From Pseudovibrio sp. Tun.PSC04-5.I4 (GTDB lineage: Bacteria; Pseudomonadota; Alphaproteobacteria; Rhizobiales; Stappiaceae), in assembly GCF_900104145.1 (NCBI RefSeq), contig NZ_FNLB01000001.1, positions 536,823 through 560,822 of the forward strand: 24,000 nt of DNA. The letters run 5' to 3'. The position numbers were made by a program, and so were the translations under genes. How positions within the stretch are numbered: position 1 is the first letter of the stretch; every line of letters begins with the position of its first letter. The notes under the pieces were generated by a model, which searched no databases, was not told the DNA's origin, and worked only from the letters and a program-made list of their open reading frames with translations. This document shows positions 2,100 to 12,010 of the stretch, one piece after another.

Positions 2100-3266
2100 T
2101 TATGGAAATGCTGCTAAGGCAACTCCGGTGCGTAATGTGCCGGTTACGGGTGATACAAGTATGCTGATGAATTTATTGATCTCTGAGACGGATGCATTGG
2201 CAACGTAAATCACATCCTTGTCTTTAATCTCAAAGGCTTGTGTTAAGAACAGTCCGCTAGGTTCTTGGAGGTTGATCCGATACACAATCGGCACTGTCTT
2301 AAACTCGTTATGCTGCTCTTGTGGTGGTAGCAATGGCATCATTTTTTGCCGGTCTTCAAAGCGGAACAGAAATACGCCGGAGGCATCTGCTGTTCCATCG
2401 TGTAGGCCGCCTGACATTCCAATAGCTTCTGACAGGCTGACACGTGAAGCTGGAAAATTTTGCTTTTTACGTTGAACCACAGCACCGAATACGGTGAACG
2501 ACTTTGGCTGATGAGAGACGCTCACAATGTCACGAGGCTGTAACCAGATGTTATTTGCAGTTTGCTCGGCAAGGTCGTCTAGGCCAAATCTAAATTTGCT
2601 TTTGTCTCGAACGACAGTGATCTTAGTCTCATAATCTGGGTGTCGCGTGCCTCCAGCTTCTGAAATCACTTCCACAAGGCTTAAGCCATCCTCGTGGACA
2701 CGATACTGCCCTGACCTTGCAACATCTCCGATAACAACAACCTGATGAGATCCATTTGCCTGCAGGTTTACAACAACTTGCGGGTCGACCGCTTTGCCTT
2801 TAAGTCCCGCCATGATTTGTTTTCGGACTTGTGAGATCGTCTTATTCTCAACATCAAGTTCACCCACGTAGGGAACAAAGATCTGGCCTTCATCATCGAC
2901 AACCAAGGCTAACTCGGTTCGTTTCTGGCCTTGGGTTGAAAAAAGTCCGTCCGTAATGGATTCCCAAATGCCGACAGAGAGTTGGTCTCCTACTCCAACT
3001 CGGATCGCACTTCGCTTTCCTTTGGCGACGCGAAACTCTTTGGGAGGGAGATTGTCAGCATATTTGGAAAGGTGTTGAACTGTCGGGACATCCACGTCCA
3101 GCATCACGTAATCGAGGACACGTTTGTCCTGCTGTGACATTGCTGTCTCAACTTGATAAGCACTTGGGCCATATCCGGGAACCTCCGAGCAACCAACCAA
3201 AGTCAGAAGTGCGATGGCCGCCACAAAAGACCCAAATCGGCATGATGTATGCGAGCGTTTTTTCAC
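2100..3266 (-). CDS. polysaccharide export outer-membrane lipoprotein (Wza/OPX family, Poly_export + SLBB domains)
   Basis: 388 aa with a GTG start and AGGA 7 nt upstream. The signal peptide has the lipobox LLTLVGC. The remainder is typical of OPX proteins (IRVGVGDQLSVGIWE..., FVPYVGELDV..KTISQVRKQI, SLBB-like repeats). Confidence 0.85.
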   Translation of the reverse strand: MKKRSHTSCRFGSFVAAIALLTLVGCSEVPGYGPSAYQVETAMSQQDKRVLDYVMLDVDVPTVQHLSKYADNLPPKEFRVAKGKRSAIRVGVGDQLSVGIWESITDGLFSTQGQKRTELALVVDDEGQIFVPYVGELDVENKTISQVRKQIMAGLKGKAVDPQVVVNLQANGSHQVVVIGDVARSGQYRVHEDGLSLVEVISEAGGTRHPDYETKITVVRDKSKFRFGLDDLAEQTANNIWLQPRDIVSVSHQPKSFTVFGAVVQRKKQNFPASRVSLSEAIGMSGGLHDGTADASGVFLFRFEDRQKMMPLLPPQEQHNEFKTVPIVYRINLQEPSGLFLTQAFEIKDKDVIYVANASVSEINKFISILVSPVTGTLRTGVALAAFP

Positions 3267-3424
3267 AAATGAATCCTGCAGTATTCGCGGGATTCGGAGT
3301 AGCTATTGTATTTGAGTGTTGCGCAAATCGCGCAGCTCTATTTCGGGAGTAGTTAGTGCTACAGGTGAGCTTGCTTCGACAGATATAAGGTAACCTGAAT
3401 CTCGTTTTTCGTGTTCAAATGAGG

Positions 3425-3454
3425 GCAATGCCTGCGTTGGACTGCAGGCATTGC
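3425..3454 (-). terminator. perfect 11-bp stem hairpin downstream of ridA (GCAATGCCTGC-N8-GCAGGCATTGC)
   Basis: Read directly from the sequence. It starts 17 nt after the ridA stop, and only a weak T-tract follows on the minus strand. It separates the ridA transcript from the wza gene. Confidence 0.5.
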
Positions 3455-3470
3455 GGGGTAACTCCTGTCC

Positions 3471-3854
3471 TTATTTAGGGCAGGCGATCATTTCGATTTC
3501 TACAAGTGCGTCTTTTGGCAAGCGTGCAACTTCAACACAGGAACGAGCTGGGAATGGTGCATTGTTGTCTTCAAAGAATTTGCCGTAAACTTCGTTCACA
3601 CGGCCAAAATCATTCAAATCTTTCACGAAAACGGTTGTTTTCATGATGTTAGCAGCCGCAAGACCAGCAGCTTCTACAATCGCCAAACCGTTCTTCAAGG
3701 ACTGAAGGGTCTGGTCAGCTACGTCCGCTGGCATTTCACCTGTTTCCGGATTGATTGGCAGCTGGCCTGATGTGATGATCATGGAACCAAGGTTTACGCC
3801 CTGTACATATGGACCAATCGCTGCAGGAGCTTTGGAGGTATCAATCGCAGTCAT
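3471..3854 (-). CDS. ridA: RidA/YjgF/TdcF-family reactive enamine/imine deaminase
   Basis: 127 aa starting MTAIDTSKAPAAIGPYVQG... and ending ...ARSCVEVARLPKDALVEIEMIA, a classical RidA sequence. I chose the internal ATG at 3854 (SD GAGGAAAG) rather than the tracked start at 3923, which would overlap the pdxY 3' end. Confidence 0.9.
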   Translation of the reverse strand: MTAIDTSKAPAAIGPYVQGVNLGSMIITSGQLPINPETGEMPADVADQTLQSLKNGLAIVEAAGLAAANIMKTTVFVKDLNDFGRVNEVYGKFFEDNNAPFPARSCVEVARLPKDALVEIEMIACPK

Positions 3855-3864
3855 TTTCTTTCCT

Positions 3865-4719
3865 CTATAGAGTTTTGAGTTTGAACACATCTGATGGGGA
3901 GATGAATTCATTTTGAGCGGCAATCGTTTGCAGCTCCCACTCAGCTTTATCGTGTGTGGCTTTTAGAATGCCGTAGACCGCATTGTTGCAGTGCTCAAAC
4001 GCTTCTACGGCAGTCGCGCCGTTCAGATAACCAGCGGCAAATACGGATGTTATCAAGTCGCCAACGCCAACAGGCTGACGATCAAACGATAAATGCGGGC
4101 GCTGCGCCAAATAATTGCCGTCCGGCGTTGCCAACATCATCGTAAATGCTTCATCGGAAACGCTGTGCAAATGTTTGGCAAGGACCATCTTGGGGCCTTT
4201 TTCGCGGGCAATTGTGCAAGCGCGCTCAGCTTCCTCTAGGGAGGAGATCGGCTCACCGATAAACTGAGACAGCTCAAACTGGTTCGGTACGATCACATCT
4301 GCCATTGGCAACAGTTTGCTGACCAACAGTTCCGCAACACCTTCGCTGACGATGCAGCCTTTGTCAGGCGCTCCCATCACGGGGTCACAAAAATAGAGGC
4401 AATCCGGGTTGTGGCGACGAACTTCGCTCACAATATCGGCAATGACATCGCAGTGAGACGCGCCGCCGAGGTAGCCCGTTACAATTCCTTTGATCTGGGA
4501 AAGAACGTTAAGTTTGGAGAGGCCTTCAAACATTTCAGCAATTTGTTTTGCGTCATGAGCCTGCCCAGTCCAGCCTTGAGGATGCTGGGTGTGGTTTGAA
4601 AACTGGACCGTATTGATCGCCCAGACTTCGTGCCCCATCCGTTGCATCGGAAATACGGCGCAGCCATTGCCAGCATGGCCGTAAGTAACGTGAGACTGAA
4701 TCGAGAGTATGCCTCTCAT
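3865..4719 (-). CDS. pdxY: pyridoxal kinase (PdxY type)
   Basis: 284 aa. The N-terminus ILSIQSHVTYGHAGNGCAVFPMQRMGHEVWAINTVQFSNHTQHPQGWTG is closely similar to E. coli PdxY as recalled. Ribokinase-fold C-terminal motif VGVGDL. SD AGGGGA upstream. Confidence 0.9.
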   Translation of the reverse strand: MRGILSIQSHVTYGHAGNGCAVFPMQRMGHEVWAINTVQFSNHTQHPQGWTGQAHDAKQIAEMFEGLSKLNVLSQIKGIVTGYLGGASHCDVIADIVSEVRRHNPDCLYFCDPVMGAPDKGCIVSEGVAELLVSKLLPMADVIVPNQFELSQFIGEPISSLEEAERACTIAREKGPKMVLAKHLHSVSDEAFTMMLATPDGNYLAQRPHLSFDRQPVGVGDLITSVFAAGYLNGATAVEAFEHCNNAVYGILKATHDKAEWELQTIAAQNEFISPSDVFKLKTL

Positions 4720-4739
4720 GGTTCTATTCCCCTTTGATA

Positions 4740-4765
4740 CTGAGGTTCACACCAGTGAACCTCAG
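4740..4765 (-). promoter_or_regulatory. 11-bp perfect hairpin between tnaB and pdxY (CTGAGGTTCAC-acca-GTGAACCTCAG)
   Basis: Read directly. It starts 28 nt after the tnaB stop and ends 20 nt before the pdxY ATG. The T-rich tail is on the plus strand, not in the direction of transcription. It is therefore more likely a processing, stability or partial-termination element than a full terminator. Confidence 0.4.
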
Positions 4766-4793
4766 TTGTGTTTGTTGAGTTCAGATCTACTTG

Positions 4794-6071
4794 TTATGGG
4801 TAAACAGGTAGAAGGTTGAACATTCCTAGAATGTGGCTGGTACCAACGACCACACCGAAGCCGAAGATGATCCAGACCAATGTCTCACCACCCCATACAC
4901 GGAACTGGGGATTGCCAAATTTCTTACGGCTGACACGAACCATTAGCGATGGAACAATTGCTGTCCAGATGGTTGCAGCAAGACCGGCGTAACCAATTGC
5001 AATGATGAACCCATTTGGAAAGAAGATGCCGCCAATGAGCGGTGGCACGAAGGTGACTGCTGCCGTTTTTAAACGACCTTCTTTACTGTCGTCGAAATTC
5101 AACAAGTCAGCAAGGAAATCGAACAGACCAAGCGCCACGCCAAGGAAAGAACTGGCGACTGCCATGTTACCGAAAGCTGACAGCATGTTGGAAGCTGAAG
5201 TGCTTTCAACTGCACGGCCAAGTGCATCAACAAGAACTCCGATGTTACCGCCCTGTTCAATCACAGGTGCAAAGTCTGCACGGGAGATATTACCCAATGT
5301 TGCAAACAGCCAGATGATGTAAAGAAGCAGTGCAAGAACAGTCCCTGTGCCCAGACACATGACGATCTTTTTCGGATCTTTGCCGTAATACTTCATCAGG
5401 CTTGGTACGTTGTGGTGGTAGCCAAATGATGCAAGGCAGAACGGAAGAGCTGCAAATAGGAACGGGAAGTAACTGCCCGTACTCATGCCGCTTTCGGTAT
5501 CAAAGAAGATCGCAGCCTTCATGTTGAAAGTGTAACCAGTCACGGACATGAAGAACGTGACGATCATACCGCCAAGCAAAATAGTGGTAATGCGATCAAC
5601 AGCTTTGGTAGACCACCAGACGAAGAATGCGAGACCTACCGCAAACATCAGTCCGGCCAGAATCTGCGGTGGTGCAAAACCGACAGTTGCTTCCAAAGTA
5701 TGTACGACAATGGAACCGCCGCCAGAGATGTATGCATAACAAAGGATATAACCAACGAAGGCTACTGCTATGTTATTAATGGTGTTCCACCTTTTCCCAA
5801 GGGTGTCTTTTACCATTGTGTCGAAGCTTGAGCCGACTGGGTAATTCAGGTTTGTTTCAAGGATCATCAAACCGGAATGCAACATGCAGAACCATGTGAA
5901 TACCAGTGCGGCAATTGCCCAGATGCTCCACATACCGGCGCTAACCGTCGGTACAGAAAACATACCAGCGCCGACTGCGGTGCCGGCAATAATCATCGCT
6001 CCTCCCAAGAACGATGGACTGACTTTTGTAGCGGTGCCAGTTAATCCGCTTAGTTGTGTGCCCTCAGACAT
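4794..6071 (-). CDS. tnaB: tryptophan-specific permease (HAAAP family, TnaB/Mtr/TyrP type)
   Basis: 425 aa, polytopic. Blocks [41 protein letters not shown] and [20 protein letters not shown] match E. coli TnaB/Mtr as recalled. It lies immediately downstream of tnaA on the same strand. SD GGGAGA. Confidence 0.85.
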
Positions 6072-6151
6072 TTACTTCTCTCCCGTGAAGTAGTGTGTGT
6101 ATATCCGTGAGGAATAGGAAGGCGCCGAGCAGCGCCTCCCTTGCAATCAAA

Positions 6152-7552
6152 TTACTTGATTGGTTTTAGGCGTGCAGTGAAGTGACGCAGCACAGGTGGC
6201 TCGTAATCAAACTCGAAACCTTTGATATTAGCTGCGTTTTTCGTAACTTCAATCAAAGCATCTGCGATGTAGTCCATATGATCGTTGGTGTAAACACGAC
6301 GTGGAATGGCCAAACGCATCAGTTCAAGTGGAGCATCTTTCTGTTTGCCCGTTGCAGGGTCACGGCCCAGCAGGAAGGAACCAATTTCTACCGGACGAAC
6401 GCCAGCTTCAAGGTACAGCGCGTTACACAGAGCCTGTGCAGGGAACTGATCACCTGGAATATGTGGCAAGATCTTGCGAGCATCTACAAATACTGCGTGA
6501 CCACCCGTTGGGTACTGAATAGGAACACCGCCCTCAAGAAGACGTTCGCCCAAGTATTTAACCTGAGAAATACGGTAATGAAGGAAATCTTCGTCCGCAC
6601 CCTCATGCAAACCTTGCGCCATTGCTTCCATGTCGCGACCAGCAAGGCCGCCGTATGTTACGAAACCTTCAAGCGGAACACAAAGGGTCTGTGCAGCCTG
6701 GAAAAGCTCGGTTTTGTCACGGATTGCGATCATGCCACCGATGTTGACGATTGCATCTTTTTTAGCGGACATGGTGAGCATGTCGCCGTAGGAGTACATT
6801 TCGCGGATGATGTCGGTGATGGATTTGTCTGCGTAACCTTCTTCACGTTGCTTGATGAAGTAAGCATTCTCACAGTAACGTGCGGAATCGATCACAACAG
6901 GAATGTCGTTTTTCTGTGCGATCTCATAGACTGCGCGCATGTTAGCCATAGAAACTGGCTGACCGCCCGAGCTGTTGCAGGTTACGGTGGTGATGATTGC
7001 AGCTACGTTTTTGGAGCCAGCTTTTTCAATCTCAGCTTCCAGCTTGACGAGATCGAAATCACCTTTCCAGTCGTAGTAAGTTACTGTATCGAAAGCTTTT
7101 TCAGTAACAACGTTAACGGCCTTGCCGCCATTCAATTCAACGTGTGCAGCTGTTGTGTCGAAGTGGAAGTTGGAGATGAAAACTGGATTTTCACCACCGC
7201 GAACGGTTTCCATGCGCTTGATGAGACAAGGGAACAGGATCTGCTCTGCGCCGCGGCCCTGGTGGGTTGGGATCAAGTATTCGTAGTTGAAGAAATGCTG
7301 CATTGCATCCTTCAGATGGAAGAAGTTACGGGAGCCAGCGTAGGACTCGTCGCCCATCATCATGCCGGCCCACTGCTTGTCGGACATTGCACCGGTGCCA
7401 GAGTCAGTCAGAAGGTCGATGTAAACATCATCGCTGCGCAGCAGGAATGGGTTGTAACCAGCTTCAGCAAGCGCGGCTTCGCGTTGTGCCTTATTGGTCA
7501 TTTTGATAGGCTCAACCATTTTGATGCGGAACGGTTCTGGTATACGTTTCAT
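6152..7552 (-). CDS. tnaA: tryptophanase (tryptophan indole-lyase), PLP-dependent beta-eliminating lyase
   Basis: 466 aa from [15 protein letters not shown] (ATG at 7552, SD AAGGA 9 nt upstream). PLP-lysine motif MSAKKD. The C-terminus [16 protein letters not shown]...[26 protein letters not shown] is near-colinear with E. coli TnaA. The tracked 504-aa ORF adds 38 non-homologous N-terminal residues. Confidence 0.9.
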
Positions 7553-7841
7553 GGTCTTAGTCCTTAAGTAACGAGACGCGCAGGGTCGGTCGCTCTCCGA
7601 CCTCATAAACGCGAAGGGGATCATCTGCCTGAGATTGCAGGCGGTCTGATTTGGAATTTGAAACACATAGGCGGACAGCTTTTGGAATTGAATGAGACGG
7701 ACGCACCTGTCCTACTTACGACCCCGCAAGGAGGTCGAATTTTGCCCGAGAAGACACAAGGGTGGATGTAGATCTACCGTGGCTCCAAGTAAAATGGGCG
7801 TTCTTCATTCAATTGTTAAAGGGGCTGTGTGGCCTTTAGGC

Positions 7842-7946
7842 TTATGCGCAGGCGCTGGGGAAGTCATAAGCAAGACGAACATCTTGCGTATACCATGCCA
7901 GGCACTCTTTATTGCGATACTGAAGAACCAGTTCTGACCGGCTCAT
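7842..7946 (-). CDS. tnaC: candidate TnaC-like regulatory leader peptide (34 aa: MSRSELVLQYRNKECLAWYTQDVRLAYDFPSACA)
   Basis: Hand-translated; too short for the ORF track. ATG with GAGGG 8 nt upstream. It has a single Trp (W18), then D22 and P30. This reproduces the W-x3-D-x7-P spacing of E. coli TnaC (W12, D16, P24). Same strand as tnaA-tnaB and 289 nt upstream of tnaA. Confidence 0.45.
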   Translation of the reverse strand: MSRSELVLQYRNKECLAWYTQDVRLAYDFPSACA

Positions 7947-7989
7947 GACATAACCCTCATTTTTACTGCTTATCGTCTGATAGCAAAGG

Positions 7990-8020
7990 CATATGAATAC
8001 GGAACGGCCTTTGTTGTCAA
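7990..8020 (-). promoter_or_regulatory. possible sigma70-type promoter for the tna leader transcript
   Basis: The minus strand reads CTTGACA (the -35 hexamer TTGACA is the complement of 8015-8020), followed 17-18 nt later by TTCATAT. That would give a 5' UTR of roughly 35-45 nt before the leader ATG. This is pattern matching only. Confidence 0.3.
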
Positions 8021-8595
8021 GAAGCTATTGCGCGGCGACGCTACGTGATATGCCCTAGAGCAAGTATTAATTGTAGTATATCTATGTTTTTATTCTCTAC
8101 TCGGCAATTTGTAATCAGAACTATAAATAAACTTGGCAGATTATGTTGTGAAGTCATCTCAGTGAAACTATAGATACTCCACAGGAATGCAGATTATCTG
8201 TTCCTATCTAGTAAGTTATAGAGATAACAGCTGAATATGCGGGACTGCGATCTTCAGACATATTGGGGGCCTTCCTTGCATTACTGGGATGAGTTTAGTG
8301 CTGGTCAATCCTTCCAATATATTTGCCTAGATATATCAAAAATCGACCATTTCGTGCGTCTAACATCTGTGAGATGTAAGAATATTACGGATCTCAGCGT
8401 TTGCTCTGCGTTTTTTGCAATGCTGCTATGCGCTGAGGCGGTTGATAACTTTTTCGTGAGGTGCGGGGTGCCGTGGTTTGAGCGCATCGAAAATGAACGC
8501 TACGTCGTTTAATCTATCTCATCTATCAATAGAAATATGCCCACATAGGAACGCGTTGTTTTGAAAGGTTTTGCGTTGCTATGTAATTTCGCGCA

Positions 8596-8647
8596 GACCG
8601 CCCCGCAGATGTAACCCTCCGCGGGGCGTCTTAAGTCCTGACTTAAG
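8596..8647 (-). terminator. two adjacent hairpins at and just after the stop codon of the beta-oxidation operon
   Basis: CTTAAGT-cctg-ACTTAAG (8630-8647) overlaps the stop codon at 8643-8645. GACCGCCCCGC-N14-GCGGGGCGTC (8596-8630) has a stem of about 10 bp with one bulge. No clean U-tract follows. Confidence 0.45.
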
Positions 8648-10790
8648 CGGCAGCCAATTTTTCGCTGCGCAGTTTGTTGAGGGCTGCTTCAGTCACTTTA
8701 AATCGAGGACCGTAAGCCGCGGCGAGTTCATCGGCCCGCGTCTTGAACGCTTCAAGGCCTACTCCGTGGATGAATTGCAATGCTCCGCCCGTATGAGCCG
8801 GGAAGCCGATGGCGAAGATGGAACCGATGTTGGCTTCAACCTCGGTCCGCAATACGTCTTCATCCAAACAGCGCAGTGTCTCGATGGCTTGACGGTACAT
8901 CATGCGATCTTCTGCATCCTGCATGGAGACGTTCAGGTCGCGCTCCTTGAACTGGGTCAAGCCGTCCCAAAGCTTTTTGGTGCCGTCCGCTGCATACTCA
9001 TAGAAGCCACCGCCATAATGACGACCTCCGCGATTCAGACCAACCATGGCTTGGCCGACTTTCACATTGGAACTGTCATCTGCCGGAAAGCCGTTCTCAA
9101 CACCGAGGCGTTTGTCGAGTGCGATGTGGGTCTCGTGGATCTTTTTGGTCAGAACCATGGAAACTTCATCATGAACCGCGAGTGGTCCAACCGGCATACC
9201 AATTTTCCAAGCGGCACGCTCAATGGCAACAGGGCTCATGCCGTCACGCATCAACGCCAAGCCTTCATCAAGGTAGGTGCCAAAGACGCGGCTGGTGAAG
9301 AACCCGCGCTTGTCATTCACCACGATTGGCAGGTAGCCGATCTGCTGAACATAATCATAGGCCTTGCGAAGGGTCTCATTGCTGGTCATCTCACCCACGA
9401 TAATCTCGACGACCTCCATTTTATCAACGGGCGAGAAGAAATGCAGACCAATGAAACGGGTTGGATCCGGGCAACTCTCTGCCAAAATGGAAATCGGCAG
9501 GGTTGAGGTGTTGGAGCCGTAAATGCCGGTGTCAGACAGCTGTTTGTAGGTTTCTGGAATAACCTTCTCTTTGAGGGAAATATCCTCGAACACAGCTTCA
9601 ATAATGATATCTGTGCCTGCAAAGGTCTCATCGCTGTCCGTTGCGGTGATGCATCCCAGAAGAGCGGCCTTCTTCGCGTCATCCATCCGGCCACGTGTGA
9701 TGGCTTTGTCCACCAGCTTTTCAGAATAGCCTTTGCCCTTCTCGGCATTCTCAAGGCTCATGTCCTTGAGCACAGTCGGCAGGCCACGGCTTGCATGCGC
9801 CCACGCAATGCCGGAGCCCATCATACCAGCGCCAAGAATGGCCGAACTGCTTGCTTTCCACGCCTCGCCTTGCGGGCGAACCTTGCCGGATTTGATGGCC
9901 TGCATACCGAAGAAGAACGTGGAGATTGCAGCACGTGCCTCTGTTGAGCGTAGAAGCGCCGTAAAGCCACGGCTTTCAGTGCGCAGAGCGCTGTCAAAAC
10001 CCATGCGCATGGAATTGACAGCAATGTCTATGACCTTTTCAGGTGCAGGCATCAGGCCGCGCGTTTTGTTGACCAGCATGGTTGGGGCCATTGCAGCCAC
10101 CATGCGCACCTTGGCACTGTCTGCACCGCCGCCCGGGTAACGGAAACCCTTCTGGTCCCATGACTGAACAACAGCCTCCGGATTGGCTTTGATCCACGCT
10201 TTTGCCGCGGGAATAAGCTCCTCTTGCGTTTCCACCAGTGCTTCCACCAGTCCAACTTTGAGCGCAGCAGCAGGTTTAAGCTGCTTGCCTTCCACCAGCA
10301 ATGGCAAGGCAGTTTCCAGACCCAGCTTTGCGGTGAGACGAATAACGCCGCCCGCACCGGGTAAAAGTCCCAGTGTTGCTTCCGGCAGACCAACGACCGC
10401 CTTTGGCGTGTTGAGCAGAATGCGATGGTTGCAGGCGAGGCAGATCTCAAACCCGCCACCCAGTGCTGCGCCATTGATGGCAGCCACCACGGGAACCGGG
10501 AGTTTTTCCAGAGCCCGCAGCGGGGCTTTCATCTCTTCCACGTAGGCAAAGATGTCTTGCGGATCCATACTGCCGTGGAGCATTTCTTCCAGATCGCCGC
10601 CCGCGAAGAAGGTCTTCTTGGCGGAGGCAATCACAATGCCGGTCAGATCCTCTTCTGTGGAGAGTTTGGCAACCAGCTCCTTCATGCCTTCAGACCATGC
10701 ACGGGTCATGGTGTTGGCAGATTTACCTTGAGAGTCGAAGGTAATTGTGACGATGCCGTCGACGTCTTTTTCGTACTTGTACTCTGACAT
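8643..10790 (-). CDS. multifunctional fatty-acid oxidation protein: enoyl-CoA hydratase/isomerase + 3-hydroxyacyl-CoA dehydrogenase (FadB/FadJ type)
   Basis: 715 aa. N-terminal crotonase fold (FFAGGDL, AAINGAALGGGFEICLACN). Central NAD-binding domain (AILGAGMMGSGIAWA) and HCDH C-terminal domains. SD AGGAGG upstream of the ATG. Confidence 0.9.
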   Translation of the reverse strand: MSEYKYEKDVDGIVTITFDSQGKSANTMTRAWSEGMKELVAKLSTEEDLTGIVIASAKKTFFAGGDLEEMLHGSMDPQDIFAYVEEMKAPLRALEKLPVPVVAAINGAALGGGFEICLACNHRILLNTPKAVVGLPEATLGLLPGAGGVIRLTAKLGLETALPLLVEGKQLKPAAALKVGLVEALVETQEELIPAAKAWIKANPEAVVQSWDQKGFRYPGGGADSAKVRMVAAMAPTMLVNKTRGLMPAPEKVIDIAVNSMRMGFDSALRTESRGFTALLRSTEARAAISTFFFGMQAIKSGKVRPQGEAWKASSSAILGAGMMGSGIAWAHASRGLPTVLKDMSLENAEKGKGYSEKLVDKAITRGRMDDAKKAALLGCITATDSDETFAGTDIIIEAVFEDISLKEKVIPETYKQLSDTGIYGSNTSTLPISILAESCPDPTRFIGLHFFSPVDKMEVVEIIVGEMTSNETLRKAYDYVQQIGYLPIVVNDKRGFFTSRVFGTYLDEGLALMRDGMSPVAIERAAWKIGMPVGPLAVHDEVSMVLTKKIHETHIALDKRLGVENGFPADDSSNVKVGQAMVGLNRGGRHYGGGFYEYAADGTKKLWDGLTQFKERDLNVSMQDAEDRMMYRQAIETLRCLDEDVLRTEVEANIGSIFAIGFPAHTGGALQFIHGVGLEAFKTRADELAAAYGPRFKVTEAALNKLRSEKLAAA

Positions 10791-10801
10791 GATCTAGCCT
10801 C

Positions 10802-12010
10802 CTACACTCGCTCAATGATGGATGCGATGCCCATGCCGCCGCCAACACACATGGTAATCAGCGCGCGTTTCAGGTTGCGGCGTTCCAGCTCGTCCATCAT
10901 GGTGGAAACCAGCATGCCGCCGGTTGCGCCCAGTGGGTGCCCCATGGCAATCGCACCGCCAACCACGTTGAGCTTTTCGTCCGGTACTTCCAGATCGCGC
11001 TGCAAACGCAGCATGACGGAGGCAAACGCTTCGTTGATCTCTACAAGGTCGATATCGTCAATGGTCAAGCCAGCTTTCGCCAATGCCTTCTTGGAGGCTG
11101 GTCCCGGTCCGGTCAGCATGATGGTTGGATCAGAGGCTGTCACGGCAACGGAAAGGACGCGGGCGCGTGGTGTCAGGCCCATGTCTTTACCGGACTGCTC
11201 ACTGCCAAGCAGGATCAGCGAGGCGCCATCCACGATACCAGAGGAGTTGCCCGGTGTGTGGACGTGGTTGATCCTCTCAACTTCCGGGTAGCGCGCCAGT
11301 GCAACCGCATCAAAGCCCATTGCGCCGTGCTTTTCAAAGCTGGCACGCAGTGAACCCAGTGTTTGCATGTCTGTGTTTGGTTTGATGAAGTCATCGCGTT
11401 GCAAAACGATGAGGCCGTTTTCATCCCTCACAGGCACAACGGATTTGTCGAACCAGCCATTGTCGCGGGCATGGGCTGCACGTTGCTGGCTGGCAACGGC
11501 AGCGGCGTCCACATCATCGCGAGACCAGCCGCCAAGGGTGGCGATCAAATCCGCGCCAATGCCTTGAGGCACGAAGCCGGTTGCGAGTACGGTTTCCGGA
11601 TCTTCGCTGAACGGGCCACCATCGGTGCCCATCGGGACGCGGCTCATGCTTTCATAACCGCCAGCGCAGATCATATCTTCCCAGCCTGATGCAATACGGG
11701 CCGCAGCGGTGTTGAAGGTATCCAGACCAGAGGCGCAGAAGCGGTTGACCTGCGCGCCAGCAACGCTCTCGTCCCAGCCCGCCTTTTGCAACGCGATCTT
11801 GGGCAGAACAGCACCCTGCTCGCGAATTGGAGTTACACATCCCATCACCACGTCATCAACGCGGGAAGTATCCAGATCATGACGACCCTGCATTTCTCCC
11901 AGCAAGGTTGTGACCAGATTGATGGGCTTGACTTCATTGAGAGAACCATCCGCTTTGCCTTTGGAGCGCGGCGTGCGGATTGCATCATAAACATAAGCTG
12001 TCTGAGCCAT
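10802..12010 (-). CDS. acetyl-CoA C-acyltransferase (3-ketoacyl-CoA thiolase)
   Basis: 402 aa. Active-site Cys context VNRFCASGL, and C-terminal thiolase motifs NEAFASV, GGAIAMGHPLGATG and CVGGGMG. The stop lies 11 nt upstream of the next gene's start. Confidence 0.9.
   Translation of the reverse strand: MAQTAYVYDAIRTPRSKGKADGSLNEVKPINLVTTLLGEMQGRHDLDTSRVDDVVMGCVTPIREQGAVLPKIALQKAGWDESVAGAQVNRFCASGLDTFNTAAARIASGWEDMICAGGYESMSRVPMGTDGGPFSEDPETVLATGFVPQGIGADLIATLGGWSRDDVDAAAVASQQRAAHARDNGWFDKSVVPVRDENGLIVLQRDDFIKPNTDMQTLGSLRASFEKHGAMGFDAVALARYPEVERINHVHTPGNSSGIVDGASLILLGSEQSGKDMGLTPRARVLSVAVTASDPTIMLTGPGPASKKALAKAGLTIDDIDLVEINEAFASVMLRLQRDLEVPDEKLNVVGGAIAMGHPLGATGGMLVSTMMDELERRNLKRALITMCVGGGMGIASIIERV

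What the first reader, a model, noticed from the sequence alone, without database searches (positions are those of the whole stretch)
7842..7946. Untracked 34-codon ORF upstream of tnaA with the TnaC W-x3-D-x7-P stalling signature
Seen in sequence: the minus strand encodes ATG...TAA giving MSRSELVLQYRNKECLAWYTQDVRLAYDFPSACA, with GAGGG 8 nt upstream of the ATG. It lies on the same strand as tnaA-tnaB, 289 nt upstream of tnaA, and is masked by a spurious plus-strand ORF (7692-7937). It contains one Trp (W18), followed by Y, then D22 and P30. Established knowledge: in E. coli TnaC (MNILHICVTSKWFNIDNKIVDHRP), W12, D16 and P24 are the residues required for tryptophan-dependent ribosome stalling, and they have the same i, i+4, i+12 spacing. 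Proteus vulgaris TnaC keeps that spacing (W20, D24, P32) but has extra codons after the Pro and stalls during elongation rather than termination. Inference: this is a tnaC-type sensor peptide. Because four codons (SACA) follow P30, it would be of the Proteus elongation-arrest type. Leader peptides of this kind are normally missed by annotation. I cannot say from here how far outside the enterobacterial lineage this one lies.
Basis: partly seen in the sequence, partly recalled or inferred. Interest (0 to 1): 0.7.

Follow-up and report, generated by a model that had tools for sequence, protein, structure and literature searches.

The report
Tryptophanase leader peptide (tnaC) in Pseudovibrio
The 34-codon reading frame is a real, conserved relative of the TnaC leader peptide, which in E. 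coli and Proteus stalls the ribosome when free tryptophan is present and so switches on tryptophanase; here it sits in a marine alphaproteobacterium (Pseudovibrio), where public records call it only a hypothetical protein.

Summary
Window 7946-7842 (- strand) encodes MSRSELVLQYRNKECLAWYTQDVRLAYDFPSACA. It has its own GAGGG ribosome-binding site and ends 289 nt before tnaA. The window comes from Pseudovibrio sp. Tun.PSC04-5.I4, where GenBank lists this ORF as a 'hypothetical protein'.

All 12 related Pseudovibrio/Polycladidibacter tnaA loci carry the same ORF, with W18 and the core W[YF][TN]xD[VI]xLAYDFP. Codons 25-30 show only synonymous changes (pN 0, pS 0.53). The N-terminal half evolves almost neutrally.

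Twenty-five Photobacterium, Shewanella and Enterovibrio loci carry WYNxD..L..DFP before a tnaA that is 76-81% identical. A profile built from those leaders alone picks out the window peptide as its only hit (30.5 bits). The curated tnaC model TIGR02616 is the peptide's only NCBIfam match, but it scores below the cut-off, which would explain why the ORF goes unnamed.

Pro is never the last codon in this subfamily. Arrest during elongation, as in Proteus, is therefore the logical inference, but it is not shown.

The output step is probably Rho-dependent attenuation in the long spacer, which has no intrinsic terminator. This is inferred, and the C-rich signature is not uniform across the genus.

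Verdict: a new member of a known kind, well supported and of moderate interest.

The parts
8015..8020 (-). TTGACA, the likely -35 element of the tna promoter. A conserved TTCATAT block at 7991-7997 is the likely -10 region.
   Evidence: CTTGACA is conserved in 10 of 13 aligned Pseudovibrio leaders, and TTTCATATG is nearly invariant. Mean pairwise identity is 0.80-0.85 here against 0.3-0.5 further upstream. The promoter role is inferred.
8041..8059 (-). Conserved upstream block TCTAGGGCATATCACGTAG (CTAGGG..CGTAG, an imperfect inverted repeat). It is a candidate activator site about 30 nt upstream of the -35 element.
   Evidence: Conserved in the core Pseudovibrio leaders. No function was tested.
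7954..7958 (-). Shine-Dalgarno sequence GAGGG of tnaC, 7 nt before the ATG.
   Evidence: TGAGG is invariant in all 13 aligned leaders.
7842..7946 (-). tnaC-type leader ORF of 34 codons plus TAA: MSRSELVLQYRNKECLAWYTQDVRLAYDFPSACA.
7856..7895 (-). Sensor and stalling core W18-Y-T-Q-D22-V-R-L25-A-Y-D-F29-P30.
   Evidence: W, D and P are invariant, and L25 and F29 are at least 90% conserved, across 18 aligned leaders that include E. coli and Proteus TnaC. pN/pS is 0.18 for codons 17-30. For codons 25-30, pN is 0 and pS is 0.53.
7845..7855 (-). Four sense codons after Pro (S31 A32 C33 A34). On the elongation-arrest reading, codon 31 would sit in the A site.
   Evidence: The tail is variable in length (1-6 codons) and sequence, and never absent, in 38 loci.
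7800..7841 (-). Conserved C-rich, G-poor block just after the stop codon, a candidate Rho loading (rut) region. It includes the boxA-like CCCCTTTAACAA at 7813-7824.
   Evidence: C/G peaks at 2.2 in the 60-nt window that straddles the stop codon. Mean pairwise identity is 0.74-0.84 among the 10 core leaders. The rut and boxA roles are inferred by analogy with E. coli.
7627..7642 (-). Spacer hairpin GCCUG-CAAUCU-CAGGC.
   Evidence: It forms in all 10 core leaders at -7 to -9 kcal/mol and 98% of cells are paired. No U-tract follows it on this strand.
7577..7613 (-). Two-tier stem-loop: CGCG..GGUCGG-loop-CCGACC..CGCG.
   Evidence: It forms in 9 of 10 core leaders at -13 to -18 kcal/mol, with U-A to C-G exchanges in the inner stem. 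Statistical support for covariation is weak. Its function is unknown.
7561..7565 (-). Shine-Dalgarno sequence AAGGA of tnaA.
   Evidence: AAGGA is conserved in the 10 core leaders.
6152..7552 (-). tnaA, tryptophanase.
   Evidence: NF009709 749.8 bits, above its cut-off. TIGR02617 789.8 bits. PF01212.
4794..6071 (-). Tryptophan permease of the Mtr/TnaB family.
   Evidence: NF007789 602.5 bits, above its cut-off of 515. PF03222.
3865..4719 (-). pdxY, pyridoxal kinase, in the same gene string.
   Evidence: NF004398 344.5 bits, above its cut-off. Present after the permease in all 12 Pseudovibrio-group loci.
3471..3923 (-). RidA-family protein, last gene of the string. Its start codon is uncertain.
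   Evidence: PF01042 at 3.9e-40. Present in all 12 Pseudovibrio-group loci.

Best explanation
The ORF is a tnaC-family regulatory leader peptide heading a tnaC-tnaA-tryptophan permease-pdxY-ridA operon in Pseudovibrio. The proposed mechanism has three steps. (1) Transcription starts at the conserved promoter and the leader is translated from its own ribosome-binding site. This step is supported by sequence conservation. (2) When P30 reaches the P site, the nascent segment W18..D22..L25..F29-P30 and the exit tunnel together bind one free L-tryptophan and silence the peptidyl-transferase centre. Because a sense codon (S31) is then in the A site, the block is to peptide-bond formation, as in Proteus vulgaris TnaC, and not to release-factor action, as in E. 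coli. This step is inferred from residue and spacing conservation. (3) The arrested ribosome holds the 3' end of tnaC and the start of the C-rich stretch that straddles the stop codon. This hinders Rho from loading, so RNA polymerase reads through the 289-nt untranslated spacer into tnaA. Without tryptophan the ribosome finishes and leaves, and Rho terminates in the spacer. This step is inferred by analogy and is the weakest. My confidence that the ORF is a functional TnaC homologue is about 0.93. For tryptophan-dependent arrest at P30 it is about 0.75, and for a Rho-dependent output about 0.5.
For: The exact ORF and its signature are present. It is conserved, with W at codon 18, in all 12 Pseudovibrio/Polycladidibacter loci whose surrounding DNA is only about 79-96% identical. 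Selection acts on the peptide and not only on the RNA. For core codons 17-30, pN/pS is 0.18, with 13 of 14 third positions variable against 4-5 first and second positions. For codons 25-30, pN is 0 and pS is 0.53. For the N-terminal codons 2-16, pN/pS is 0.84. The core is shared with 25 gammaproteobacterial tnaA leaders. W, D and P are invariant, and L and F nearly so, in an alignment with E. coli and Proteus TnaC. TIGR02616 tnaC_leader is the only NCBIfam hit; residues 17-30 align to profile positions 9-22, ending at Pro. A profile built from 17 gammaproteobacterial leaders finds only this peptide among 885 window segments, at 30.5 bits and E 1e-5 with Z set to 1e6. BLASTP against Proteus TnaC P28779 gives 6/13 identities across W..P. 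The literature gives TnaC lengths of 24-36 residues, W/D/P essential, I19/L27 semi-conserved, and arrest at termination in E. coli versus elongation in P. vulgaris (PMC3902921). Phe at the position before Pro is common in homologues and raises Trp sensitivity, and Phe13, Asn14, Asp16 and Lys18 contact 23S rRNA (PMC8429421). Here these positions are Y19, T20, D22, R24 and F29. The spacer has no intrinsic terminator on the coding strand, no Rfam match and no conserved ORF. C/G peaks at 2.2 across the stop codon, similar to the C-rich stretch after the E. coli tnaC stop. The E. coli Rho and rut model is summarised in PMC12360218.
Against: There are no experimental data for this organism. The score against the curated tnaC model is below its cut-off (15.9 versus 23.55 bits), and Pfam PF08053 gives no hit. 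Asn14, which contacts the ribosome in E. coli, is Thr here. With four codons after Pro, a ribosome arrested at P30 would reach only to about the stop codon, so most of the C-rich stretch would stay exposed. The C>G bias is modest and is absent in the three most divergent relatives: in the first 80 nt of spacer, C/G counts are 12/15 (L002), 18/15 (L006) and 15/23 (L007). Related Photobacterium leaders have spacers of only 69-70 nt, which fits a Rho mechanism poorly. I could not check whether an alphaproteobacterial ribosome (uL22 Lys90, the A752:U2609 pair) supports the tryptophan pocket.
Confidence: 0.75

Rival explanations
1. The peptide is a TnaC-type tryptophan-dependent arrest peptide, but its output is not Rho-dependent termination. 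Instead, the arrested ribosome would remodel the leader RNA, for example by freeing the tnaA ribosome-binding site or changing mRNA stability or processing, as in erm-type translational attenuation.
For: Two spacer stem-loops are kept in 9-10 of 10 core leaders, with a few compensatory changes. RNAalifold pairs AGCCU, directly after the tnaC stop, with the tnaA AGGACU Shine-Dalgarno region. The C-rich signature is missing in L002, L006 and L007. Photobacterium relatives have 69-70-nt spacers.
Against: The pairing between the post-stop sequence and the tnaA Shine-Dalgarno region is only 5 bp with a bulge, over about 290-380 nt, and it never varies, so it carries no covariation evidence. The whole-leader fold is not unusually stable (z -1.66). 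Both studied TnaC systems, E. coli and Proteus, use Rho. The spacer is long, untranslated and free of terminators, which is what Rho needs.
Confidence: 0.15
2. The ORF is a conserved small protein or an inherited relic that no longer regulates the operon in Pseudovibrio. On this view it was carried along when tnaA was acquired from a gammaproteobacterium.
For: tnaA is 76-81% identical to Vibrionaceae and Shewanella genes, which suggests horizontal acquisition. An alphaproteobacterial ribosome might not support the mechanism, and this is untested. The ORF is annotated only as hypothetical.
Against: A relic would decay. Instead the core is under strong purifying selection across a genus whose locus DNA has diverged to about 79% identity. 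The pattern of constraint, with the W..P core conserved and the N-terminus and tail free, is that of a tunnel-acting arrest peptide and not of a folded small protein. The SD, the start codon and the position before tnaA are invariant.
Confidence: 0.05
3. The ORF is a classical attenuation leader of the trpL kind, sensing charged tRNA-Trp through slow translation of the Trp codon.
For: It is a short leader ORF containing a Trp codon upstream of a tryptophan-related operon.
Against: There is only one Trp codon. No terminator or antiterminator pair and no U-tract terminator lie on the coding strand. The operon is catabolic, so induction by starvation would make no sense. Conservation extends over D, L, F and P at fixed spacing, which a codon-sensing leader does not need.
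Confidence: 0.02
4. The ORF is a chance ORF with a chance motif.
For: Short ORFs are abundant: 109 ORFs of at least 25 aa overlap 3000-11000.
Against: The motif arose in 14 of 5000 shuffles for a single locus. It recurs in 12 of 12 orthologous loci and 25 more distant ones, with synonymous-only variation in the core.
Confidence: 0.01

Closest known systems
Proteus vulgaris TnaC (UniProt P28779, 34 aa: MFSSFNVLIILRGFVRLKKWFNIDSELAFFFPKK)
   Same: Both are 34 residues long, with the same W-x3-D-x2-L-A-x-x-F-P core (6/13 identical). Both have sense codons after Pro, a position upstream of tnaA, and a single Trp. Arrest during elongation and a Rho-dependent spacer are reported for Proteus (PMC3902921; Kamath & Yanofsky 1997 and Cruz-Vera et al. 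2009, cited but not readable here).
   Different: W is at residue 18, not 20. The tail has four codons (SACA), not two Lys. Thr replaces Asn at W+2, and Asp replaces Phe at W+10. The spacer is 289 nt and shares no sequence with Proteus. The host is an alphaproteobacterium. The operon carries pdxY and ridA in addition.
Escherichia coli TnaC (b3707, 24 aa: MNILHICVTSKWFNIDNKIVDHRP)
   Same: It has the same W/D/P spacing, with I19 matching L25. It has its own SD, a long untranslated spacer to tnaA (220 nt), and a C-rich stretch directly after the stop codon. The tryptophan pocket and the rRNA contacts have been solved structurally (PMC8429421).
   Different: In E. coli Pro is the last codon and arrest blocks RF2 at UGA. 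Here four sense codons and TAA follow Pro. Only 3 of 13 core residues are identical. E. coli has Arg before Pro, whereas this peptide has Phe, the residue that the R23F variant showed to raise Trp sensitivity.
tnaA leader ORFs of Photobacterium, Shewanella and Enterovibrio (seen here in loci L013-L080; I did not check whether they are described in print)
   Same: These are the closest sequence relatives: WYNxD[FI]xL[SA]xDFP followed by 1-5 sense codons, before a tnaA 76-81% identical. Shewanella and Enterovibrio share LAYDFP exactly.
   Different: They have Asn, not Thr, at W+2. Their spacers are shorter (69-282 nt). No homologue of the window's permease, pdxY or ridA was found within the roughly 4 kb of sequence held downstream of tnaA.
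Vibrio tnaA leaders (the V. cholerae leader is annotated as tnaC, VCA0161.1; PMC4332508)
   Same: They have W-Y-N-L-D-Y-C-L at the same spacing upstream of tnaA, and they match TIGR02616 weakly.
   Different: Lys, not Pro, sits at W+12 (WYNLDYCLSLLSK), so one of the three hallmark residues is missing.
SpeFL, the ornithine-sensing arrest peptide of speF
   Same: It works on the same principle: a leader peptide and the exit tunnel capture a free amino acid, and the stalled ribosome blocks Rho (PMC12360218).
   Different: Its sequence is unrelated, and its ligand and operon are different.

Membership tests
TnaC, tryptophanase operon leader peptide (TIGR02616 / PF08053) | Short ORF (24-36 codons) with its own SD, directly upstream of tnaA on the same strand | tested here: met
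   34 codons, with GAGGG 7 nt before the ATG and 289 nt before tnaA. The length range is from PMC3902921.
TnaC, tryptophanase operon leader peptide (TIGR02616 / PF08053) | A single Trp, with Asp at W+4 and Pro at W+12 | tested here: met
   W18, D22, P30; no other Trp. These are invariant across 18 aligned leaders, including E. coli and Proteus TnaC.
TnaC, tryptophanase operon leader peptide (TIGR02616 / PF08053) | Medium-sized hydrophobic residue (I or L) at W+7 | tested here: met
   L25, kept in all 38 Pro-containing leaders seen here. The requirement is from PMC3902921.
TnaC, tryptophanase operon leader peptide (TIGR02616 / PF08053) | Score at or above the curated profile cut-off | tested here: not met
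   TIGR02616: 15.9 bits against a cut-off of 23.55, E 0.01. It is the only NCBIfam hit, in the correct register. PF08053: no hit. That model is narrow, since the genuine Proteus TnaC scores only 12.8 against a cut-off of 25. This is a limit of model breadth: a profile of gammaproteobacterial leaders gives 30.5 bits.
TnaC, tryptophanase operon leader peptide (TIGR02616 / PF08053) | Conservation of the peptide, and not only of the RNA, in orthologous loci | tested here: met
   Present in 12 of 12 loci. Core pN/pS is 0.18, and codons 25-30 vary only synonymously.
TnaC, tryptophanase operon leader peptide (TIGR02616 / PF08053) | Free L-Trp-dependent ribosome arrest with Pro-tRNA in the P site | not testable with these tools
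   This needs toeprinting, in vitro translation or Ribo-seq.
TnaC, tryptophanase operon leader peptide (TIGR02616 / PF08053) | Rho-dependent termination in the tnaC-tnaA spacer, relieved by the stalled ribosome (rut site next to the stop codon) | tested here: inconclusive
   There is no intrinsic terminator. In the window, C/G reaches 2.2 across the stop codon, but there is no C excess in L002, L006 or L007. Rho dependence itself cannot be tested here.
Elongation-arrest (Proteus-type) subclass of TnaC | Sense codon(s) between the conserved Pro and the stop codon | tested here: met
   Four codons follow Pro here, and 1-6 in all 38 related leaders, never zero.
Elongation-arrest (Proteus-type) subclass of TnaC | Trp inhibits peptidyl transfer from TnaC-tRNA(Pro) to the next aminoacyl-tRNA | not testable with these tools
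   This is inferred only from the fixed W-to-P distance and the variable tail.

The most novel reading that the evidence does not exclude
The tnaC-tnaA module crossed from a marine gammaproteobacterium into the alphaproteobacterial genus Pseudovibrio and still works there. If so, the tryptophan-sensing pocket would form on a phylogenetically distant ribosome. This 'DFP plus tail' subfamily would be a purely elongation-arrest class, and its output in some members (short spacers, no C-rich tract) would run through RNA remodelling and not through Rho.
Probability: 0.15. Interest if true: 0.55.

Novelty: new member of a known kind. Interest (0 to 1): 0.35.

Why it matters
TnaC is a textbook case of a nascent peptide that turns the ribosome into a small-molecule sensor, and it is used as a tryptophan biosensor in synthetic biology. 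This locus extends the family to an alphaproteobacterial genus of sponge and coral associates that is known for indole-derived natural products (PMC12842680).

It also offers a set of natural variants to test against the solved structures:
- Phe before Pro
- Thr in place of the Asn that contacts the ribosome
- tails of 1-6 codons
- spacers of 69-380 nt

It shows that the curated tnaC models are too narrow. As a result, such leaders are either left out or named 'hypothetical protein'.

It also points to a functionally coherent operon: tryptophanase, a tryptophan permease, a PLP-salvage kinase, and the RidA deaminase, which would detoxify the aminoacrylate that tryptophanase produces.

Tried and rejected
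- Rfam at gathering thresholds over the whole window, and at E up to 5 over 7450-8250, gave no RNA family.
- Pfam found nothing for the peptide.
- The look-up of encoding contigs had no record of the peptide.
- The key older papers could not be read because they are not held: Cruz-Vera & Yanofsky 2008, Cruz-Vera et al. 2009, Kamath & Yanofsky 1997, and Konan & Yanofsky 2000. What I say about them rests on citations in held papers and on my own knowledge.
- The + strand ORF 7692-7937 and the small ORFs 7716-7808, 7557-7706, 8237-8512 and 8305-8487 have no Pfam match. The + strand ORF 7692-7937 is also not conserved in the 12 related loci.
- An intrinsic terminator in the spacer was rejected. 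The only terminator-like hits are on the opposite strand.
- A leader-wide RNA structure was not supported. The fold has z -1.66, and covariation in the alifold helices is weak because the sequences are closely related.
- GC content does not mark the locus as foreign.
- I did not run the metagenome scan or the 1.84-billion-protein search. A 13-residue core cannot reach significance there, and neither search would give taxonomy.

Full report
**1. Observation**

The minus strand of window 7946-7842 reads ATG...TAA and translates to MSRSELVLQYRNKECLAWYTQDVRLAYDFPSACA.
- The key residues are W18 (the only Trp), D22, L25, F29 and P30. Four sense codons and TAA follow P30.
- The next gene on the same strand starts at 7552, 289 nt after the stop. 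It is tryptophanase (NF009709 749.8 bits; PF01212).
- After tnaA come a tryptophan permease (6071-4794), pyridoxal kinase PdxY (4719-3865) and a RidA-family protein (3923-3471).
- The + strand ORF 7692-7937 that overlaps the leader is real as an ORF. It is not conserved in related loci and has no Pfam match.
- An ORF with W-x3-D-x7-P on the tnaA strand appears in the 600 nt upstream in 14 of 5000 dinucleotide shuffles. With L/I at W+7 as well, the figure is 3 of 5000.

**2. Origin**

The exact peptide is GenBank SDQ21824.1, 'hypothetical protein', from Pseudovibrio sp. Tun.PSC04-5.I4. Near-identical peptides in P. denitrificans and in strains Ad46, W64 and Ad13 are also unnamed. The ORF has therefore been called as a gene, but never recognised.

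A scan of one genome per species with TnaA returned 80 loci:
- 12 from Pseudovibrio or Polycladidibacter (Alphaproteobacteria), 84-94% identical.
- Then Photobacterium, Vibrio, Shewanella, Enterovibrio and Microbulbifer (Gammaproteobacteria), 76-81% identical.

That level of identity across classes, for a gene that is rare in Alphaproteobacteria, points to horizontal transfer of the module. I did not establish the direction.

**3. Conservation**

All 12 Pseudovibrio-group loci have an ATG-started ORF with W at codon 18, the core W[YF][TN]xD[VI][RM]LAYDFP, and 2-6 further codons, ending 255-380 nt before tnaA. In the DNA alignment the TGAGG ribosome-binding site, the ATG and the core are invariant or nearly so.

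Codon analysis shows that selection acts on the amino acids:

| Region | pS | pN | pN/pS |
|---|---|---|---|
| Codons 17-30 (core) | 0.43 | 0.079 | 0.18 |
| Codons 25-30 (LAYDFP) | 0.53 | 0 | 0 |
| Codons 2-16 (N-terminal) | 0.36 | 0.31 | 0.84 |

- In the core, 13 of 14 third positions vary, against 4 and 5 first and second positions.
- In codons 25-30, every codon varies and every change is synonymous; Pro uses all four codons.
- A free N-terminus, a fixed 13-residue C-terminal core and a free tail are what is expected of a peptide that acts inside the ribosomal exit tunnel.

**4. Link to known TnaC**

- Twenty-five gammaproteobacterial loci carry WYNxD[FI]xL[SA]xDFP plus 1-5 codons before tnaA.
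- In an alignment of 18 leaders that includes E. coli TnaC and Proteus vulgaris TnaC (both sequences verified), W, D and P are invariant, and L at W+7 and F before Pro are at least 90% conserved.
- BLASTP against Proteus TnaC gives WYTQDVRLAYDFP against WFNIDSELAFFFP, 6/13 identical.
- Among 18,950 NCBIfam models the only match is TIGR02616 tnaC_leader. Residues 17-30 align to profile positions 9-22, ending at Pro, at 15.9 bits. The cut-off is 23.55.
- Pfam PF08053 does not match, but it also fails on the genuine Proteus peptide, which scores 12.8 against a cut-off of 25.
- A profile built from 17 gammaproteobacterial leaders only finds the window peptide as the single hit among 885 stop-to-stop segments of the window, at 30.5 bits.
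- The literature gives the defining features of the family: 24-36 residues, a unique Trp, Asp and Pro whose mutation abolishes induction, a semi-conserved I19/L27, and arrest at termination in E. coli versus peptidyl transfer in P. vulgaris (PMC3902921).

**5. Mapping onto the solved structure (PMC8429421)**

| E. coli residue | Role reported | Residue here |
|---|---|---|
| Trp12 | Stacks on the ligand | W18 |
| Phe13 | Stacks on C2611 | Y19 |
| Asn14 | H-bond to A2058 | T20 (a difference; relatives have N) |
| Asp16 | Contacts U2609 | D22 |
| Lys18 | Contacts U2584 | R24 |
| Ile19 | Hinge | L25 |
| Residue 23 (Phe in R23F) | Stacks on A2451 | F29 |
| Pro24 | Displaces U2585 | P30 |

The R23F variant raised tryptophan sensitivity, and the paper describes Phe as common at this position in homologues. 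The Pseudovibrio peptide may therefore be a sensitive variant. This is an inference.

**6. Where the ribosome would stop**

The W-to-P distance is fixed at 12 residues in every leader. The tail is variable in sequence and in length (1-6 codons), and it is never absent in this subfamily. The register is therefore set by Pro at the peptidyl-transferase centre, with a sense codon (AGC, S31) in the A site. It is a logical inference and not a measurement.

**7. Output step**

- The coding strand of the spacer has no intrinsic terminator, no Rfam family and no conserved ORF.
- In the window, C/G peaks at 2.2 in the 60 nt that straddle the stop codon, with a second C-rich stretch 95-155 nt before tnaA.
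- The first ~45 nt after the stop are conserved at 0.74-0.84 pairwise identity among the ten core leaders.
- That stretch contains CCCCTTTAACAA, which resembles the boxA consensus as I recall it. That is a lead and not a test.
- E. coli likewise has a C-rich stretch directly after tnaC, where a stalled ribosome shields the rut site (PMC12360218).

I therefore favour Rho-dependent attenuation, with three reservations:
- A ribosome arrested at codon 30 reaches only to about the stop codon.
- The C excess is missing in the three most divergent relatives, L002, L006 and L007.
- Photobacterium relatives have 69-70-nt spacers.

Two stem-loops (7642-7627 and 7613-7577) are maintained in 9-10 of 10 core leaders, with a few compensatory changes. 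Covariation statistics are weak because the sequences are close, so their role is open. The rival in which arrest acts through RNA remodelling is kept at about 0.15.

**8. Novelty**

TnaC and its two arrest modes are well known, and the V. cholerae tnaC leader is annotated. In the held library I found no paper that describes TnaC in Pseudovibrio or in any alphaproteobacterium.

This is a new member of a known kind. It is solid, useful for annotation and as a natural variant set, and not surprising to a specialist. Interest: 0.35.

Noticed in passing
window 3471-7552 (- strand); L001-L012: In the window and all 12 Pseudovibrio-group loci, tnaA is followed by a tryptophan permease, pyridoxal kinase pdxY and a RidA-family gene. 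None of the gammaproteobacterial loci shows a homologue of these genes within about 4 kb downstream. The grouping makes functional sense: PLP supply for a PLP enzyme, and RidA to remove the aminoacrylate or enamine product.
   Followed up: partly
about 37 Vibrio loci in the range L020-L074, e.g. L072 (V. cholerae), 78-182 nt (mostly 92-147) before tnaA at 4001: Vibrio tnaA leaders read W-Y-N-L-D-Y-C-L-S-L-L-S-K. W, D and L sit at the TnaC spacing, but Lys, not Pro, is at W+12. How such a leader arrests the ribosome, if it does, is not obvious.
   Followed up: no
L017 (leader stop 63 nt before tnaA at 4001) and L018 (tnaA at 536): Two low-GC Alphaproteobacteria MAGs have tnaA 79% identical to the window's but no W-x3-D leader. 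Instead a different mini-ORF with a strong SD precedes tnaA: MEKENFLKWIICLIKCPDS and MSKENLFERIFCLVKCPDS, sharing CL[IV]KCPDS. This may be another type of leader peptide.
   Followed up: no
L048 and L069 (Microbulbifer), last ~150 nt before tnaA at 4001: Both have a conserved reading frame ...SPI..FICTI.(V/A)LK... just upstream of tnaA, again without the TnaC signature.
   Followed up: no
L013, L015, L016, L019 (Photobacterium): The tnaC-type ORF ends only 69-70 nt before tnaA. That is much shorter than the 220 nt of E. coli or the 255-380 nt of Pseudovibrio, and fits a Rho-loading spacer poorly.
   Followed up: no
L082 = CP128431.1 54-10051 ('Microbulbifer sp. MKSA007 plasmid p_1', from the sponge Smenospongia aurea): This 454-kb 'plasmid' of a gammaproteobacterium carries the Pseudovibrio-type locus: the leader MSRSVLVLQYRNKKSLAWFTQDVRLAYDFPNACV, then tnaA, pdxY, ridA and a polysaccharide export gene. 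It is 96% identical in DNA to P. denitrificans / JE062 over 6.5 kb. Either the record is mis-assigned (for example a mixed culture) or a large replicon moved between sponge symbionts.
   Followed up: partly
window 7577-7613 (- strand); A2 columns 298-334: A two-tier stem-loop lies 25-60 nt before tnaA and is kept in 9 of 10 core leaders, with U-A to C-G exchanges. Most other species have an extra ~55-nt insertion with further hairpins between it and the tnaA SD; the window and P. axinellae lack this insertion.
   Followed up: partly
window 8041-8059 (- strand): A conserved block CTAGGG..CGTAG (imperfect inverted repeat) lies about 30 nt upstream of the conserved TTGACA. It is a possible activator site, at a position comparable to the CAP site of the E. 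coli tna promoter as I recall it.
   Followed up: no
window 7947-8642: The ~700-nt gap between tnaC and the upstream fadJ-like gene has no Pfam-recognisable ORF. In 7450-8250 there is also no Rfam match. Only the 150 nt nearest tnaC are conserved in relatives.
   Followed up: partly
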